Positions 277 to 44,056 of a stretch of 64,000 nt of DNA are shown here, piece after piece. Numbering within the stretch: the stretch's first letter is position 1; every line of letters begins with the position of its first letter. The notes below the pieces were generated by a model that searched no databases, was not told the DNA's origin, and saw only the letters and a program-made list of their open reading frames with translations. Both the position numbers and the translations under genes were made by a program. This DNA is from Escherichia coli (GTDB taxonomy: Bacteria > Pseudomonadota > Gammaproteobacteria > Enterobacterales > Enterobacteriaceae), in assembly GCF_044647545.1 (NCBI RefSeq), contig NZ_CP172818.1; one strand, written 5' to 3'.

Positions 277-792
277 ATGTTGAAACAGATAATCTGGATT
301 CTGTTCTTACTGGGATTAACGGGGGGCTGTGAGCTATTTGCCCATGATGGCACGGTCAACATTAGCGGATCGTTTCGCCGTAATACATGCGTGCTGGCAC
401 AGGATAGCAAGCAAATCAATGTGCAGTTAGGCGACGTCTCGCTGACACGTTTTTCTCATGGGAATTATGGCCCGGAGAAATCGTTCATCATTAATTTGCA
501 GGATTGCGGAACAGATGTCAGCACGGTTGACGTCACCTTTTCAGGAACCCCCGACGGAGTACAGAGCGAAATGCTGTCCATTGAAAGTGGTACGGATGCA
601 GCCAGTGGGCTGGCAATTGCAATTCTGGATGATGCGAAGATATTGATTCCGCTTAACCAGGCGAGTAAAGACTACAGCCTACATAGCGGTAAGGTGCCAT
701 TAACTTTTTACGCGCAATTGCGACCTGTCAATAGCGATGTGCAGTCGGGTAAAGTGAATGCCAGCGCGACATTTGTACTTCATTATGACTAA
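277..792 (+). CDS. ycbV: Fimbrial-like protein
   Basis: ATG at 277 gives MLKQIIWILFLLGLTGGCELFA (signal peptide-like); 171 aa; stop overlaps next gene start. Confidence 0.75.
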   Translation: MLKQIIWILFLLGLTGGCELFAHDGTVNISGSFRRNTCVLAQDSKQINVQLGDVSLTRFSHGNYGPEKSFIINLQDCGTDVSTVDVTFSGTPDGVQSEMLSIESGTDAASGLAIAILDDAKILIPLNQASKDYSLHSGKVPLTFYAQLRPVNSDVQSGKVNASATFVLHYD

Positions 793-1567
793 TACGTGGA
801 ACAGATTGGCGCTCTTGATTTTCGCCGTTTTATCGCTGCTGGTGGCGAGTGAATTGCAGGCAGGAGTGGTGGTCGGCGGAACGCGATTTATCTTTCCGGC
901 AGACAGAGATTCGATATCTATTTTATTGACTAATACCAGTCAGGAATCCTGGCTTATTAACAGTAAAATCAATCGCCCAACGCGTTGGGCTGGGGATGAA
1001 GCGTCGACAGTACCAGCACCATTACTGGCCGCTCCGCCACTTATTCTCCTGAAGCCCGGTACTACAGGCACATTGCGCTTGCTGAGAACGGAAAGCGACA
1101 TCTTGCCCGTGGATCGCGAAACGCTATTTGAGTTAAGCATTGCCAGCGTGCCATCCGGCAAAGTTGAAAATCAGAGCGTAAAAGTGGCGATGCGCTCGGT
1201 ATTTAAACTGTTCTGGCGACCCGAAGGTTTGCCGGGCGACCCGCTGGAAGCTTATCAACAATTACGCTGGACACGGAATTCGCAGGGTGTACAACTCACT
1301 AACCCAACGCCTTACTACATTAACCTGATTCAGGTGAGCGTAAATGGTAAAGCGTTAAGTAATGCGGGAGTTGTGCCACCTAAAAGCCAGCGTCAGACAA
1401 GCTGGTGTCAGGCTATAACACCGTGTCACGTCTCCTGGCGGACGATAAATGATTACGGCGGGTTGAGTTGCAAAGAAGGAGCAAAATCTGCCCTGAAACA
1501 GGCTCGGAAAACGTTTGCGCTTTTTTTGCCACAGGTCAATTCCCTTTTGGTCCGAACTCGCACATAA
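785..1567 (+). CDS. ycbF: Periplasmic pilus chaperone (start approximate)
   Basis: ATG at 785 gives MTNTWNRLALLIFAVLSLLVASELQAGVVVGGTRFIF, a PapD-like chaperone N-terminus; exact start and length not verified. Confidence 0.7.
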   Translation: MTNTWNRLALLIFAVLSLLVASELQAGVVVGGTRFIFPADRDSISILLTNTSQESWLINSKINRPTRWAGDEASTVPAPLLAAPPLILLKPGTTGTLRLLRTESDILPVDRETLFELSIASVPSGKVENQSVKVAMRSVFKLFWRPEGLPGDPLEAYQQLRWTRNSQGVQLTNPTPYYINLIQVSVNGKALSNAGVVPPKSQRQTSWCQAITPCHVSWRTINDYGGLSCKEGAKSALKQARKTFALFLPQVNSLLVRTRT

Positions 1568-21164: not shown

Positions 21165-23219
21165 ATGGAACTGAAAGCGACAACGCTTGGAAAACGTCTG
21201 GCACAGCACCCTTACGATCGGGCGGTGATCCTCAATGCCGGGATTAAAGTCTCCGGCGATCGCCACGAATACCTTATTCCTTTCAATCAATTACTGGCGA
21301 TTCACTGTAAGCGCGGTCTGGTATGGGGCGAGCTGGAATTTGTACTGCCGGACGAAAAAGTGGTGCGTCTGCACGGCACCGAATGGGGCGAGACGCAGCG
21401 TTTTTACCATCATCTTGATACTCACTGGCGGCGGTGGAGTGGGGAGATGGGCGAAATTGCGTCTGGCGTTTTACGTCAGCAACTGGATTTGATTGCCACG
21501 CGCACCGGAGAAAATAAATGGCTGACGCGTGAGCAAACCTCTGGTGTGCAGCAACAAATCCGCCAGGCTTTGTCGGCGTTGCCGTTGCCGGTTAACCGAC
21601 TGGAAGAATTCGATAACTGCCGTGAGGCGTGGCGTAAATGTCAGGCCTGGTTGAAGGACATTGAAGGCGCTCGGTTGCAGCATAATCAGGCGTATACCGA
21701 AGCCATGCTTACCGAGTATGCGGATTTTTTCCGCCAGGTCGAGTCTTCACCGCTGAATCCGGCGCAGGCCCGGGCAGTCGTTAATGGCGAGCATTCTTTG
21801 TTAGTGCTGGCTGGTGCAGGAAGCGGAAAAACGTCGGTGCTGGTGGCCCGTGCAGGCTGGTTGCTGGCACGTGGTGAAGCGTCCCCTGAGCAAATTTTAT
21901 TGCTGGCGTTTGGTCGCAAAGCCGCTGAAGAGATGGACGAGCGTATTCGCGAACGGCTACATACCGAAGACATTACCGCACGCACATTTCATGCGCTGGC
22001 GCTGCATATTATTCAGCAGGGCAGCAAAAAAGTTCCGATAGTCAGCAAACTGGAAAATGATACCGCTGCCCGTCATGAACTTTTTATTGCTGAGTGGCGC
22101 AAGCAATGCAGCGAAAAGAAAGCGCAGGCGAAGGGCTGGCGGCAATGGCTGACGGAAGAAATGCAGTGGTCAGTGCCAGAAGGTAACTTCTGGGATGATG
22201 AAAAATTACAGCGTCGTCTTGCCTCACGCATCGATCGTTGGGTAAGTCTGATGCGGATGCACGGTGGTGCACAGGCAGAAATGATTGCCAGTGCACCCGA
22301 AGAGATTCGCGATCTGTTCAGTAAACGTATCAAGTTGATGGCTCCGTTATTAAAAGCCTGGAAAGGTGCGCTGAAGGCAGAAAACGCTGTCGATTTTTCG
22401 GGCCTTATTCACCAGGCGATTGTGATTCTGGAGAAAGGTCGCTTTATCAGCCCGTGGAAGCATATTCTGGTTGATGAATTTCAGGATATCTCGCCGCAGC
22501 GCGCAGCGTTGTTAGCGGCATTACGCAAGCAAAACAGTCAGACGACGTTGTTCGCCGTTGGTGATGACTGGCAGGCGATTTATCGCTTCAGCGGTGCGCA
22601 AATGTCGCTCACCACCGCTTTCCATGAAAACTTTGGTGAAGGTGATCGCTGCGATTTAGACACGACTTACCGTTTTAACAGTCGTATCGGTGAGGTGGCA
22701 AACCGGTTTATTCAGCAGAACCCAGGCCAGCTGAAAAAGCCGCTAAACAGCTTAACCAATGGAGACAAAAAAGCCGTCACGTTATTGGATGAGAGCCATC
22801 TTGACGCTTTGCTGGATAAGCTCTCTGGTTATGCCAAACCGGAAGAGCGCATTCTGATCCTGGCGCGTTACCATCACATGAGGCCTGCCAGCCTGGAAAA
22901 AGCGGCAACACGCTGGCCGAAGTTGCAAATCGACTTTATGACCATTCATGCCAGCAAAGGGCAACAGGCGGATTACGTCATCATCGTTGGCTTGCAGGAG
23001 GGGAGTGATGGTTTTCCGGCTGCGGCGCGGGAGTCGATTATGGAAGAGGCGCTACTGCCACCGGTTGAGGATTTCCCGGACGCTGAAGAACGGCGGTTAA
23101 TGTACGTGGCGCTGACCCGGGCACGCCATCGGGTATGGGCACTGTTTAACAAAGAGAATCCCTCTCCATTTGTCGAAATACTGAAAAATCTGGATGTGCC
23201 GGTGGCGAGAAAACCGTAA
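21165..23219 (+). CDS. helD: DNA helicase IV
   Basis: 684-aa ORF from ATG at 21165 (MELKATTLGKRLAQHPYDRAV...); Walker A GAGSGKTSV; UvrD-like motifs. Confidence 0.9.
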   Translation: MELKATTLGKRLAQHPYDRAVILNAGIKVSGDRHEYLIPFNQLLAIHCKRGLVWGELEFVLPDEKVVRLHGTEWGETQRFYHHLDTHWRRWSGEMGEIASGVLRQQLDLIATRTGENKWLTREQTSGVQQQIRQALSALPLPVNRLEEFDNCREAWRKCQAWLKDIEGARLQHNQAYTEAMLTEYADFFRQVESSPLNPAQARAVVNGEHSLLVLAGAGSGKTSVLVARAGWLLARGEASPEQILLLAFGRKAAEEMDERIRERLHTEDITARTFHALALHIIQQGSKKVPIVSKLENDTAARHELFIAEWRKQCSEKKAQAKGWRQWLTEEMQWSVPEGNFWDDEKLQRRLASRIDRWVSLMRMHGGAQAEMIASAPEEIRDLFSKRIKLMAPLLKAWKGALKAENAVDFSGLIHQAIVILEKGRFISPWKHILVDEFQDISPQRAALLAALRKQNSQTTLFAVGDDWQAIYRFSGAQMSLTTAFHENFGEGDRCDLDTTYRFNSRIGEVANRFIQQNPGQLKKPLNSLTNGDKKAVTLLDESHLDALLDKLSGYAKPEERILILARYHHMRPASLEKAATRWPKLQIDFMTIHASKGQQADYVIIVGLQEGSDGFPAAARESIMEEALLPPVEDFPDAEERRLMYVALTRARHRVWALFNKENPSPFVEILKNLDVPVARKP

Positions 23220-37272: not shown

Positions 37273-37310
37273 AATCAATAATGTCAGATATGAAAAGCGG
37301 AAACATATCG

Positions 37311-38576
37311 ATGAAAGCGATCTTAATCCCATTCTTATCTCTTCTGATTCCGTTCACCCCGCAATCTGCATTCGCTCAGAGTGAGCCGGAGCTGAAGCTG
37401 GAAAGTGTGGTGATTGTCAGTCGTCATGGTGTGCGTGCTCCAACCAAGGCCACGCAACTGATGCAGGATGTCACCCCAGACGCATGGCCAACCTGGCCGG
37501 TAAAACTGGGTTGGCTGACACCGCGCGGTGGTGAGCTGATCGCCTATCTCGGACATTACCAACGCCAGCGTCTGGTAGCCGACGGATTGCTGACGAAAAA
37601 GGGCTGCCCGCAGCCTGGTCAGGTCGCGATTATTGCTGATGTCGACGAGCGTACCCGTAAAACAGGCGAAGCCTTCGCCGCCGGGCTGGCACCTGACTGT
37701 GCAATAACCGTACATACCCAGGCAGATACGTCCAGTCCCGATCCGTTATTTAATCCTCTAAAAAATGGCGTTTGCCAACTGGATAACGCGAATGTGACTG
37801 ACGCGATCCTCAGCAGGGCAGGAGGGTCAATTGCTGACTTTACCGGGCATCGGCAAACGGCGTTTCGCGAACTGGAACAGGTGCTTAATTTCCCACAATC
37901 AAACTTGTGCCTTAACCGTGAGAAACAGGACAAAAGTTGTTCATTAACGCAGGCATTACCATCGGAACTCAAGGTGAGCGCCGACAATGTCTCATTAACC
38001 GGTGCGGTAAGCCTAGCGTCAATGCTGACGGAGATATTTCTCCTGCAACAGGCACAAGGAATGCCGGAGCCGGGGTGGGGAAGGATCACTGATTCACACC
38101 AGTGGAACACCTTGCTAAGTTTGCATAACGCGCAATTTTATTTACTACAACGCACGCCAGAGGTTGCCCGCAGTCGCGCCACCCCGTTATTGGATTTGAT
38201 CATGGCAGCGTTGACGCCCCATCCACCGCAAAAACAGGCGTATGGTGTGACATTACCCACTTCAGTGCTGTTTATCGCCGGACACGATACTAATCTGGCA
38301 AATCTCGGCGGCGCACTGGAGCTCAACTGGACGCTTCCTGGTCAGCCGGATAACACGCCGCCAGGAGGTGAACTGGTGTTTGAACGCTGGCGTCGGCTTA
38401 GCGATAACAGCCAGTGGATTCAGGTTTCGCTGGTCTTTCAGACTTTACAGCAGATGCGTGATAAAACGCCGCTATCATTAAATACGCCGCCCGGAGAGGT
38501 GAAACTGACCCTGGCAGGATGTGAAGAGCGAAACGCGCAGGGCAGTGTTCGTTGGCCGGTTTTACGCAAATCGTGA
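37311..38576 (+). CDS. appA: Periplasmic phytase / acid phosphatase AppA with frameshifted, truncated C-terminus
   Basis: ATG at 37311 gives MKAILIPFLSLLIPFTPQSAFA signal peptide; RHGVRAP histidine acid phosphatase motif. Frame ends ...NAQGSVRWPVLRKS*, whereas the +1 frame reads LAGFTQIVNE (the expected AppA C-terminus, recalled) before running into GC-rich DNA. Confidence 0.85.
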   Translation: MKAILIPFLSLLIPFTPQSAFAQSEPELKLESVVIVSRHGVRAPTKATQLMQDVTPDAWPTWPVKLGWLTPRGGELIAYLGHYQRQRLVADGLLTKKGCPQPGQVAIIADVDERTRKTGEAFAAGLAPDCAITVHTQADTSSPDPLFNPLKNGVCQLDNANVTDAILSRAGGSIADFTGHRQTAFRELEQVLNFPQSNLCLNREKQDKSCSLTQALPSELKVSADNVSLTGAVSLASMLTEIFLLQQAQGMPEPGWGRITDSHQWNTLLSLHNAQFYLLQRTPEVARSRATPLLDLIMAALTPHPPQKQAYGVTLPTSVLFIAGHDTNLANLGGALELNWTLPGQPDNTPPGGELVFERWRRLSDNSQWIQVSLVFQTLQQMRDKTPLSLNTPPGEVKLTLAGCEERNAQGSVRWPVLRKS

Positions 38577-38581
38577 ATGAA

Positions 38582-38840
38582 CGGGGGGACGACGGGCGAC
38601 GGGGGCCGCGGGGAAGACGACGGGACGCGGGGCTATCCGCCAGCGCGGCTGTTCGCGTTGCGGGTCGCGGCGCGGGCCCCGTGGTGCGCCTGCCGCTGGG
38701 CGCCTGGCCTGCTCGGCCTGCGGGGGTTGGTGCGGCGGGGCCGCTTGTCCCGCCGGGCGCCGCGCGCGTCCGCGGGCGGCCGTCGGCGCTCGGCGCGGGC
38801 GGGCCGCGCCTCGGGGGCCGCCCCCCCCGGGCGCCTCTCC
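38582..38840. other. Compositionally foreign GC-rich block (about 85% GC) at the appA-cspH junction; origin unknown
   Basis: Counted 80-93% GC per 60-nt line against roughly 50% in flanks; G/C homopolymer runs (8 C at 38821-38828); open frames on both strands with Arg/Gly/Pro/Ala-rich translations and no RBS. Confidence 0.8.
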
Positions 38841-38841
38841 A

Positions 38842-39054
38842 TCAAGACAAATAAACATTTGCCGCTGTTGGTCCTCGCAGGCCATTTACGCGGCAAAATT
38901 CCACGCGTAATCCTGGTATAAGCACTTCTGCGTCGCGGGGAGTGAATGCGGAAATATGGACCTGGACTTCTTTACGACCGTCGGAGGGGATAATGAATCC
39001 TTTGCCGCTTTTGCGATCAAAGGTTTTGACAATTCCTGTCATTTTACGGGACAA
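38842..39054 (-). CDS. cspH: Cold-shock-like protein CspH
   Basis: 70-aa [40 protein letters not shown]... Confidence 0.9.
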
Positions 39055-41241: not shown

Positions 41242-41323
41242 GATTTTGCCAGTCCGTTAAGTTGCATACCAAATGCCACTATTCTAGTTGTTCTTAACTG
41301 GCTGATATTGATTCAAATCGCGT

Positions 41324-44056
41324 TCAGGTCTTTCTTATTAACCATGCTTCCAGAGCGGCAACACTGCGTGTAATTTCTTCGTGTGGAAGGGGGGCAGATA
41401 ATGGCTGCTGCTCCAGTTGTGCGCAAAGCTGGCTGGCGCTACGCATTCCCAGACTCGAGCAACTGCTTTTTAGCTGATGTGCGGCACGCTTTATTTTTTC
41501 GCTGTTCTGGCTGGCGCGGGCAATGTCGATTTCATCGAGAAGCGGCAGGGCATGTTGTTTAAATAATATCAGCCATTCGTGGATCTTCTCCGTCCCCATC
41601 AACTGAGCATCTTCATTGAGTTGCGATACATCCAGCGGTTGATCGTTATTGACTTGTAGTTGGAGATAGTGCGCCAGTAACTGACCGAGCACTTCACGCG
41701 GCACCGGTTTAGGGATAATCCCGCGAAATAATGAACTGGTACGCTGGCGCAACGTTTCGTCGATGACATGAGCGCTAAAGCCAATCAAAACCAGCGACGG
41801 ATATTGCTGTGCCAGTTGCCGGGCAAGCGTGATGCCGTCGATATCGGGCAGATCAAAATCCACCAGTGCGGCAGCAAACGGTTCACTATTTTGCAACGTC
41901 TCTATCGCGTGCGCGGCATTTCCTACCGCAACGACCTGCGCACCACTGGTAGTCAGCATCTCGACGGTAATTCGCTGGGTTAGCGGGTTATCTTCAATTA
42001 ACAGCAAACGTAAACCGTCCAGACGCACCGCCTGATTGACTGTTTTTGGCACGGGAGCAGTGGCAACACGTAACGGCAAGCGTAAACAAAAACAGCTTCC
42101 AACTTCCGGCGTGCTGGTGGCGCTCAGTTCGCCGCCCATCGCCTGGGCCAGACGGCTACTGATAGTCAGCCCCAGCCCGGTGCCGCCGCGTTTGCCGCTT
42201 ACCTGCACAAATGGCTGGAAGATTTCTGCCAGTTTCGCGGGATCAATACCGCAGCCGCTGTCTTCCACTTCGACCAGCCATTGCTCGCCATCAGTGCGGC
42301 TACGTAAAACGATCTGCCCTTCGTCAGTAAAACGCAGGGCGTTGCTCAACAGGTTGGTTATAACCTGACGAATACGTCGCGGATCGCCCATTAACGCGGT
42401 CGGTACATCGTCGGCAATTGCTGTTGCCAGGTGAATCGGGCGACCTTTAACCCGTCCGCTCATTAATTGCAGGGTACTTTCCAGCAGCGGGCGCGGTTCA
42501 AAGGGCTCATCGCTGACCGAAACATTCTTGCCACCCGCTTCGATAGCCGAATAATCGAGAATATCGTTGAGGATGGTCAGCAACGATTCACCAGAGTCGG
42601 TAATTGCCCGCAAATCATCACGCTGGGCATTAAGTGCGGGGTTATCTGCCAGCAGTTGCGCGGTGCCAAGAATACCGTACAGCGGTGTGCGGATCTCATG
42701 GCTCATCGCCGCCAGAAACGCCGATTTTGCCTGGCTGGCTTTTTCTGCTTCCGCCCGTGCCTGTCGGTGTTCTATCACCAGTTCCTGCAATTCAGCTGTA
42801 CGCGCTTTGACCTGCGCCGCCAGCTGTTCACGGTGGCGATTCAGTGCATGAACACTGCTGCGAAACGCATCCATCAGCCGCCCGATGGTGTCCAGCTCCC
42901 GCACGCCAGCGGTTTCCGGGAAAGGGGAGTTGATATCACCGTCCAGCAGCCGTTGCAGCGCCTGCGTTTGTTCGGCAAGTGGACGCGTGACTGAGCGATA
43001 AACCACGCGCCAGAGGATCAGAATCAGTGCGCAAAGTGAAACCATCCCCAGCAATAACAGGCTGTATTGCCCGCGTGCACTGGCTTTTTCCAGATGCGCC
43101 AGTCCGTGCTGATTACGCAGCTCAATGGTGTCGACCAGCTGACTGACTTCGCTACTAAACTGCGCGAACTGGGCGATGTTATTTTGGGCGAGAGTTTGCA
43201 GGCGATTGCTGATTTCACTGTCCTGCTGATACAGCGCCAGCAAATCGCTATATTGGCTAACGGTAGTTAACGTTGTTGCGACCTGAGCACGAACTCCCGG
43301 ATCTTCAATGCGTATTTGCCGACGTTGCAGAATTTTCACCGCATTATTGAGCTGGTGTTCCAGCGTTGCTGCATTTTTCTGGATCTGCTCCAGCCCAAGA
43401 TTCATCACCATTTGCTGCACCCGCAGGGCGCTAAGGCGCAGTTCATTCATCTGGTTAACATACTCAAGATCGATATCAATCAGCCGATCGAGTGCACTTT
43501 CTGCGGCCTGACGCTGATGTTGTTCGATCAAATCGTAAATCCCGGCCTGGGTCGCTCCGGCGGAAGTTGCCGCATTATTCGCCTGACCTTGCGCCAGGCG
43601 TGCGATTTCATCGGCGGCGGCGACTATCTGCTGACTGAGTCGCTGTTGTTGCTGGCGCAGTTGCAAACGCTGCCCCACCAGTTCCCCTTGCTGACGTAAC
43701 GAACGGGAGATCTCCTGCTCCTGTTGTTCAATAGCGGTGGTATCAAAACCTTGTTCCCGTAACGCTTGCAGCAACGCATTAATCTTCAGGCTTTGTGCGG
43801 TGAGCATTCGCCCCTGCGCCTGCCACATCTTTTCGTTATCGGCACTGGTCAGGTTCTGCGCGGCGAAAAGTTCCCAGGCGCTGGCTTCGCTCAACTGGCG
43901 CGCCATATTCATGGTAGGAATCAATGCCTGAGTGTTGTCTTTTTCCACTTGGCTGATAAAGCGCAGGTTGTACCATCCCACCAGGGTACTGGTCAGGGTT
44001 AACAGCGCCATCAGGGCAAAGCCCATCCAGAGTCTTCGGGTCAGGGTTAAATTCAC
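41324..44056 (-). CDS. torS: TMAO sensor hybrid histidine kinase TorS (start approximate)
   Basis: Long ORF with HisKA (SHEIRTPL), HATPase, receiver and HPt regions; probable GTG start at 44056 giving (M)[18 protein letters not shown]; start codon choice not verified. Confidence 0.85.

What the first reader, a model, noticed from the sequence alone, without database searches (positions are those of the whole stretch)
38541..38581. appA carries a 1-bp deletion that frameshifts and truncates its C-terminus
The appA frame ends ...NAQGSVRWPVLRKS* at 38576, while the +1 frame reads LAGFTQIVNE, matching the AppA C-terminus as I recall it (...NAQGMCSLAGFTQIVNEARIPACSL). That implies loss of one T in the ATG codon near 38544/38545 (ggcagtgtt here versus an expected ggcATGtgtt), plus replacement of the last 8 codons by the GC-rich block. 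The altered tail would remove both C-terminal cysteines (precursor Cys413 and Cys430) that, by my recollection of the AppA structure, form two of its four disulfides. Stable, active phytase is therefore doubtful. It could also be a homopolymer-independent sequencing error.
Basis: partly seen in the sequence, partly recalled or inferred. Interest (0 to 1): 0.5.

Follow-up and report, generated by a model that had tools for sequence, protein, structure and literature searches.

The report
Private appA frameshift beside orphan GC-rich insert
In this ST648-type E. coli sequence the phytase gene appA has lost one base and, 37 bases further on, 19 native bases are replaced by 253 bases of 86% G+C DNA that matched nothing searched, so the gene is probably dead; this is an ordinary private lesion or an assembly fault.

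Summary
One T is missing between 38544 and 38545, in the Met412 codon of appA. The frame shifts to SVRWPVLRKS and stops at 38574-38576, giving 421 aa without Cys413 and Cys430. None of 5,426 complete E. coli genomes has this deletion.

The interpretation needs correcting. The window is almost identical to ST648-lineage genomes, where the etk-gfc cluster is absent. There appA is 436 aa (...NEARIPACALHQDK*) and overlaps cspH tail to tail, as in 1,662 of 5,426 genomes. In the window, 19 native bases (GCACGCATACCGGCGTGCG) are replaced by 253 bases (38582-38834) of 86% G+C DNA, within an A-free run of 198 bases (38643-38840). The net change is +234 bases, which is in frame.

The block matched nothing in E. 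coli genomes, plasmids or phages. Exact k-mers (22-27 bases) found only one 23-base chance match in reference-genome, metagenome and viral contigs. It has no protein relative in any frame, no Rfam match, no RNA structure signal and no transposon ends.

The lesion is private and looks like one complex event. It is either a real break repair that captured foreign DNA or an assembly fault, and only reads or PCR can decide. If real, AppA loses two of its four disulfides and is very likely inactive. Interest is low.

The parts
37311..38576 (+). appA coding sequence as it stands: 421-aa precursor from the RefSeq-type start MKAIL (an upstream in-frame ATG lies at 37281). It matches intact AppA up to Gly411.
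   Evidence: ORF list. PDB AppA chains 1dkl and 7z1j align up to residue 411-412. NCBIfam NF007552 scores 802 bits against a cut-off of 585, but only profile positions 5-415 of 436 are matched.
38544..38545 (+). Site of the 1-base deletion: the T of the ATG codon for Met412 is missing between these two bases.
   Evidence: Alignments to ST648 and WP5-S18-ESBL-08. Absent from all 5,426 complete E. coli genomes.
38544..38576 (+). Frameshifted tail SVRWPVLRKS followed by a TGA stop.
38546..38581 (+). Native appA codons 413-424 (CSLAGFTQIVNE), now out of frame. This stretch holds the Cys413 codon.
38582..38834 (.). Orphan block of 253 bases, 86% G+C, replacing the native 19 bases GCACGCATACCGGCGTGCG (a 6-base-stem hairpin, codons ARIPAC plus one G). 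It lies within an A-free run at 38643-38840. It is open in the unshifted appA frame. The right edge is ambiguous by about 7 bases.
   Evidence: No similar sequence found. No protein relative. No Rfam match. No excess folding energy. No transposon-like ends.
38835..38854 (+). Surviving native 3' end of the lineage's appA (codons LHQDK and TAA stop at 38837-38854), overlapping the end of cspH. It is no longer translated as part of AppA.
38842..39054 (-). cspH, intact and identical to relatives. Its stop codon is 7 bases from the right edge of the block, so its 3' flank is changed.

Best explanation
A single, strain-private, complex lesion at the 3' end of appA has turned the gene into a pseudogene.

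Shown:
- The native 19-base hairpin that ends the lineage's appA is replaced by 253 bases of foreign, 86% G+C DNA.
- 37 bases upstream, one T is lost from codon 412.
- The product is a 421-aa precursor with a 10-residue nonsense tail. It lacks the last 25 residues of the 436-aa lineage allele, including Cys413 and Cys430.

Inferred:
- A double-strand break at or near the convergent appA/cspH junction was resected by about 19 bases and rejoined by illegitimate (alternative) end joining, capturing a piece of exogenous high-GC DNA. Error-prone repair synthesis left the 1-base deletion nearby.
- Cys404 and Cys155 lose their partners, so two of four disulfides cannot form. The periplasmic enzyme should misfold or be degraded, and phytase / pH 2.5 acid phosphatase activity should be lost.
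- cspH is untouched except for its 3' flank.
- A two-step history (in-frame block insertion first, T deletion later) is a variant of this explanation.
For: - The T deletion and the block are both present and both private.
- The rest of the 64 kb is identical to a finished ST648 genome except for one SNP and one 2-base deletion. The assembly is therefore locally of high quality, and the lesion is not part of a general error pattern.
- Both flanks of the block are collinear at one locus with only 19 bases lost. Chimeric reads or a contaminant would not easily produce that.
- The deletion lying 37 bases from the junction points to one event (inference).
- Loss of Cys413 and Cys430 is shown. Their disulfide partners, and the poor yield of variants lacking them, come from PMC8010977.
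- The truncated protein misses the last 21 positions of the AppA family profile.
- A native end-joining pathway using RecBCD and short microhomology exists in E. coli (bioRxiv 10.1101/605246, describing the model of Chayot et al.).
Against: - No source for the block was found anywhere. That includes all complete E. coli genomes, plasmids and phages, exact k-mers in reference-genome, metagenome and viral contigs, and protein searches of all six frames.
- The composition is unlike normal bacterial coding DNA: 86% G+C, a 198-base run without A, and only weak codon periodicity (p about 0.03-0.09).
- Neither the truncated AppA nor any ORF over the block is in a collection of about 15 billion proteins.
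- Two of the window's three private small changes are deletions outside homopolymers. That ratio is unusual for natural divergence.
- Capture of exogenous DNA by end joining in wild E. coli is rare, and the model described concerns deletions. That the pathway can insert unrelated DNA is my recollection of Chayot et al. 2010 and was not checked here.
Confidence: 0.45

Rival explanations
1. Assembly, consensus, finishing or later data fault. The living strain has the ordinary 436-aa appA overlapping cspH. The 253-base block and the nearby single-base discrepancies are not in its DNA.
For: - The block is a complete orphan with an unnatural composition: G 123, C 95, T 26, A 10 over 38582-38835, and no A for 198 bases.
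- It has no homologue at DNA or protein level.
- It has no structure signal and no regulatory signals.
- Small discrepancies cluster at its edges: the T deletion 37 bases to the left, and a possible T>G plus an extra C within 7 bases of the right edge.
- Two of three other private changes in the window are small deletions.
- The allele is unknown in 5,426 genomes and in about 15 billion proteins.
Against: - The other 64 kb is essentially perfect.
- Standard short-read or long-read assemblers would favour the high-coverage native path over a junk path.
- A contaminant or chimeric read cannot explain a block joined on both sides to the same locus with only 19 bases missing.
- The deletions are not in homopolymers, where platform indel errors concentrate.
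Confidence: 0.4
2. Deliberate engineering or synthetic DNA. A designed in-frame insertion at the 3' end of appA was later spoiled, or was accompanied, by a 1-base deletion.
For: - The net change is exactly +234 bases, or 78 codons.
- With the T restored, the ORF runs ...IVNE, then 85 block codons, then back into the native LHQDK*.
- There is no natural source for the block (all searches).
Against: - An in-frame length has a 1 in 3 chance.
- An 86% G+C sequence has almost no stop codons in any frame; five of six frames are open.
- The encoded Arg/Gly/Pro/Ala-rich peptide matches no known tag or domain.
- There are no scars, selection markers or recombination sites.
- ST648 is a clinical and environmental lineage, not a laboratory chassis.
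Confidence: 0.07
3. The block is a small functional or mobile module, such as a miniature transposable element, a structured RNA or a small protein gene, that inserted at the appA/cspH junction.
For: It has a discrete size, sits between two convergent genes, and carries open frames of 87-114 aa on both strands.
Against: - It has no terminal inverted repeats and no target duplication. Instead 19 bases of target are deleted.
- There is no second copy in the window or in 28 Gb of E. coli sequence.
- There is no Rfam match.
- It folds no better than shuffled sequence: z +0.64 and +1.99.
- It has no promoter-like or terminator-like sites.
- It has no protein relatives.
Confidence: 0.03

Closest known systems
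Frameshifted or truncated pseudogenes of non-essential genes in E. coli isolates (the kind PGAP labels 'frameshifted', such as torS and ycbF in the same lineage)
   Same: A 1-base deletion in an otherwise intact, well-known gene produces a premature stop. The gene is dispensable in the laboratory. The lesion is strain-private.
   Different: Here the frameshift is coupled to a 253-base replacement by orphan DNA 37 bases downstream, so it is a complex lesion and not a simple indel.
AppA disulfide-deficient variants (C155S/C430S and C404S/C413S; Berkmen et al. as cited in PMC8010977)
   Same: The partners of Cys155 and Cys404 are lost. In the experimental variants, removal of either bond lowers activity or yield.
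   Different: Both bonds are lost at once here, together with the last 25 residues of the lineage allele, and 10 unrelated residues are added. The effect on the enzyme was not measured here.
Alternative (Ku/LigD-independent) end joining in E. coli, as in Chayot et al. 2010 and described in bioRxiv 10.1101/605246
   Same: A few bases are lost at the break, unrelated DNA ends are joined, and no homology is needed.
   Different: The source of the filler DNA is unknown, so microhomology at the junctions cannot be checked. Dependence on RecBCD and LigA cannot be tested from sequence. Reported events are mostly deletions.
The natural appA-cspH fusion allele (etk-gfc cluster absent; 436-aa AppA WP_022645486.1)
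   Same: This is the genomic background of the window. The same junction bases CTCTCCATCAAGACAAATAA and an identical cspH are present.
   Different: The window has lost the 19 bases before that junction and gained the block and the T deletion. The natural allele keeps all eight cysteines.

Membership tests
AppA family phytase / histidine acid phosphatase (NCBIfam NF007552; HP2 clade) | Whole-protein score above the curated cut-off | tested here: met
   802 bits against a cut-off of 585. About 98% identical to PDB AppA chains over residues 23-411.
AppA family phytase / histidine acid phosphatase (NCBIfam NF007552; HP2 clade) | Catalytic motifs RHGxRxP and HD | tested here: met
   RHGVRAP and HDTN are present in the translation.
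AppA family phytase / histidine acid phosphatase (NCBIfam NF007552; HP2 clade) | Complete C-terminus (profile positions 416-436) | tested here: not met
   The match ends at profile position 415 of 436. The PDB alignment breaks at residue 412.
AppA family phytase / histidine acid phosphatase (NCBIfam NF007552; HP2 clade) | Eight cysteines forming four disulfides (C99-C130, C155-C430, C200-C210, C404-C413) | tested here: not met
   The window protein has Cys 99, 130, 155, 200, 210 and 404 only. The pairing is taken from PMC8010977.
Frameshift pseudogene | An indel whose length is not a multiple of three relative to intact orthologues, leading to a premature stop | tested here: met
   One T is missing. 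The stop comes 10 codons later.
Frameshift pseudogene | The lesion is present in the organism's DNA, not only in the consensus sequence | not testable with these tools
   No reads are available. The allele is absent from 5,426 genomes and from the protein collections.
Insertion sequence / miniature transposable element | Terminal inverted repeats and a target-site duplication | tested here: not met
   No terminal inverted repeats were found. Nineteen bases of target are deleted, not duplicated.
Insertion sequence / miniature transposable element | Further copies in the same or other genomes | tested here: not met
   No match in 28 Gb of E. coli genomes in near or distant mode, nor in plasmids or phages.
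Known structured RNA | A match to an Rfam family, or folding energy better than shuffled sequence | tested here: not met
   No Rfam match at E up to 10. Fold z-scores are +0.64 and +1.99.
End-joining repair with captured filler DNA | Loss of a few bases at the break and an unrelated insert between otherwise collinear flanks | tested here: met
   Nineteen bases are lost and 253 unrelated bases gained, with flanks identical to relatives.
End-joining repair with captured filler DNA | An identifiable donor sequence and microhomology at both junctions | tested here: inconclusive
   No donor was found. The DNA collection scans were exact k-mers only, and vertebrate genomes could not be searched.

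The most novel reading that the evidence does not exclude
The 253-base block is genuine DNA from an unsampled source, captured into the chromosome of a wild ST648 E. coli by illegitimate end joining. One possible source is host (vertebrate) non-coding GC-rich DNA such as an rDNA spacer or a CpG island, whose G>C, T>A, A-poor composition it resembles. That would be a natural case of orphan or cross-kingdom DNA capture in E. coli. The resemblance to vertebrate DNA is from memory only and was not tested.
Probability: 0.08. Interest if true: 0.6.

Novelty: new member of a known kind. Interest (0 to 1): 0.22.

Why it matters
If real, this strain lacks a working periplasmic phytase / pH 2.5 acid phosphatase. 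That is a minor, strain-specific phenotype in a clinically important lineage (ST648). It would also be an example of a complex break-repair scar with captured foreign DNA in a wild E. coli. If it is an artefact, it is a useful warning: a locally perfect assembly can still hold a junk block that creates a false pseudogene. In neither case does it open a larger biological question, unless the block proves to come from an unexpected donor such as the host.

Tried and rejected
**Search for a source of the block**
1. Megablast and blastn against all complete E. coli genomes, plasmids and phages gave nothing. The only hit was a 63-base, 78% chance match in a Massilia plasmid.
2. Exact k-mers of 22-27 bases were taken from four parts of the block. 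They found nothing in viral contigs or metagenome contigs. In reference-genome contigs there was one hit, in an Anaerolineae MAG. It matches only 23 bases and is chance.
3. Protein searches of all six frames gave nothing. NCBIfam found nothing for the ORFs over the block.
4. Rfam gave nothing.

**Ideas tested and rejected**
5. The block as a transition-hypermutated (A>G, T>C) or otherwise recoded copy of local sequence. The best purine/pyrimidine and keto/amino pattern matches were 64-66%, which is chance level.
6. Internal repeats, tandem repeats or terminal inverted repeats. Only weak low-complexity matches were found.
7. An evolved RNA structure. The block folds no better than shuffled sequence.
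8. Promoter-like or terminator-like sites in the block. None was found.

**Search for the allele elsewhere**
9. The truncated AppA (both possible starts) and the block ORFs are not on record.

**Left open**
10. Codon periodicity of the block is weak (p 0.03-0.09) and does not settle whether it was once coding.

Full report
**1. What is in the sequence**

The window reads ...GAA ACG CGC AGG GCA GTG TTC GTT GGC CGG... around 38530-38560. The appA ORF (37311-38576 from the RefSeq-type start MKAIL; an upstream in-frame ATG lies at 37281) ends ...LAGCEERNAQGSVRWPVLRKS* with TGA at 38574-38576. The other frame reads CSLAGFTQIVNE at 38546-38581. After GAA (Glu, ending at 38581) the sequence changes abruptly to very G+C-rich DNA. 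This is the only stretch above 72% G+C in the 64 kb.

**2. The right reference is not K-12**

The window is essentially identical to ST648-lineage E. coli genomes. Against strain WP5-S18-ESBL-08 the whole window shows only these differences:
- one SNP at 22230;
- the missing T at 38544/38545;
- the block;
- a 2-base deletion at 56183.

In this lineage the 9,048 bases that separate the appA and cspH stop codons in K-12 (etk, etp, gfcEDCBA and an IS1) are absent. There appA is 436 aa, ends ...IVNEARIPACALHQDK*, and overlaps the end of the convergent cspH by 13 bases. This arrangement is common and natural. The 81-base junction is found in 1,662 of 5,426 complete genomes. The exact 436-aa protein is on at least 1,000 contigs.

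**3. Anatomy of the lesion**

Compared with the lineage:
- The T of ATG (Met412) is deleted.
- 37 bases downstream, the 19 bases GCACGCATACCGGCGTGCG are replaced by 253 bases at 38582-38834. The 19 bases form a small hairpin that encodes ARIPAC plus the first base of the next codon.
- The native bases CTCTCCATCAAGACAAATAA follow unchanged, and cspH (38842-39054, minus strand) is intact.

BLAST can extend the right flank 7 bases further into the block at the cost of one mismatch and one gap. In such G+C-rich sequence that may be chance.

The net length change is +234 bases, or 78 codons. If the T is restored, the frame runs through the block and rejoins LHQDK*, giving a 514-aa ORF. An in-frame length has a 1 in 3 chance. 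Five of six frames of the block are open simply because it has so few A and T. I give this little weight.

**4. The lesion is private**

- No complete E. coli genome has the T deletion. 1,785 genomes match the 70-base query with that gap as the only difference, and none matches at 99% or better.
- None covers the block.
- The truncated AppA and four ORFs over the block are absent from a collection of about 15 billion proteins and from the gene-position index.

The window's other two differences are also private: HelD L356I at 22230, and the 2-base deletion next to the terminator hairpin between ymdF and rutG at 56183. With only three private small changes in 64 kb, the chance that one falls within about 40 bases of a block edge is about 0.004 (my estimate). 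The T deletion and the block therefore most likely belong to one event, or one fault.

**5. What the block is not**

Counted over 38582-38835, the block has G 123, C 95, T 26 and A 10. There is no A from 38643 to 38840.

| Test | Result |
|---|---|
| Similar DNA in E. coli genomes, plasmids, phages | none |
| Exact k-mers in viral and metagenome contigs | none |
| Exact k-mers in reference-genome contigs | one 23-base chance hit |
| Protein relatives, six frames, about 5.8 and 1.84 billion proteins | none |
| NCBIfam match for ORFs over the block | none |
| Rfam family | none |
| RNA folding versus shuffles | no better (z +0.64, +1.99) |
| Terminal inverted repeats, target duplication, tandem structure | none |
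| Promoter-like or terminator-like sites | none |
| Recoded copy of local sequence | no |
| Codon periodicity | weak (p 0.03-0.09) |

So it is not a transposable element, a known E. coli repeat, a known RNA or a recognisable gene fragment.

The collection scans have limits. They were exact k-mers and would miss donors below about 95% identity. No vertebrate or eukaryotic-virus DNA database was available.

**6. Consequence for AppA**

The protein still scores as AppA: NF007552 at 802 bits against a cut-off of 585, with the RHGVRAP and HDTN motifs present. It matches only profile positions 5-415 of 436, and it leaves the solved AppA structures at residue 412.

Precursor cysteines are 99, 130, 155, 200, 210, 404, 413 and 430 in both K-12 and ST648. 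The window protein lacks 413 and 430. PMC8010977 gives the native bonds as C99-C130, C155-C430, C200-C210 and C404-C413. [quoted passage not shown] It cites Berkmen et al. for reduced activity when any bond is removed.

Losing both bonds and the last 25 residues of the lineage allele, with 10 wrong residues added, should give an unstable, inactive periplasmic protein. This is inference; nothing was measured.

**7. Real or artefact?**

For a real lesion:
- The rest of the window is essentially perfect.
- Both block junctions sit at one locus with only 19 bases missing. Contaminant or chimeric reads do not explain that easily.
- Assemblers normally prefer a well-covered native path.
- The deletions are not in homopolymers.
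- E. coli has a native end-joining pathway.

For an artefact:
- The block is a complete orphan with a very odd composition.
- Small discrepancies cluster at its edges.
- Two of the three private small changes in the window are deletions.
- The allele is unknown elsewhere.

I put a genuine complex break-repair lesion at about 0.45 and an assembly, consensus or data fault at about 0.40. Engineering is about 0.07 and a functional or mobile module about 0.03. Reads or a single PCR would settle it.

**8. Comparison with what is known, and verdict**

This is a new instance of a known kind: a strain-private pseudogene of a dispensable gene. The accompanying orphan insert is unusual. The reference, the extent of the replacement and the link between the two changes needed correction.

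Interest is low (0.22). The only reading with more interest is that the block is captured DNA from an unexpected donor such as the host. I give that about 0.08.

Noticed in passing
window 38835-38854 and 38842-39054; L001 2780-2830: In this lineage the etk-etp-gfcEDCBA (group 4 capsule) region, 9,048 bases in K-12, is absent. appA (436 aa...ACALHQDK*) overlaps cspH tail to tail by 13 bases. The same junction is in 1,662 of 5,426 complete E. coli genomes.
   Followed up: partly
window 22230: Private SNP: A here, C in relatives, giving HelD L356I. No complete E. coli genome shares it; the best match over 71 bases is 98.6%.
   Followed up: partly
window 56183: Private 2-base deletion (GCCATCACC becomes GCCCACC) just upstream of the terminator hairpin CCGCCGGTAACCCCGGCGG between ymdF and rutG. 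No complete E. coli genome shares it. With the appA deletion, two of the window's three private small changes are deletions outside homopolymers.
   Followed up: partly
window about 41312-44055 (minus strand): torS is annotated as 'frameshifted' in the near-identical relatives ST648 and WP5-S18-ESBL-08. The window is identical to them there. The longest ORF in the window stops at 41324, 12 bases short of the annotated end. This is a lineage-wide feature, not private.
   Followed up: no
window about 758-1496 (plus strand): The fimbrial chaperone gene ycbF is annotated as 'frameshifted' in WP5-S18-ESBL-08. The window is identical there and shows an open 269-aa ORF at 758-1567. I did not examine this.
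   Followed up: no
L004 5370-5392 (Anaerolineae MAG JALOOJ010000136.1): A 23-base exact match to block positions 38716-38738. The similarity does not extend beyond it, so it is a chance hit in 298 Gb of genomes.
   Followed up: yes
window 38582-38633 versus 38634-38834: The first 50 or so bases of the block are G/A-rich with many G runs (8 A, no T; G-quadruplex-like). The rest has T but almost no A. This suggests two segments of opposite strand polarity or a composite origin. No inverted repeat between the two parts was found.
   Followed up: partly
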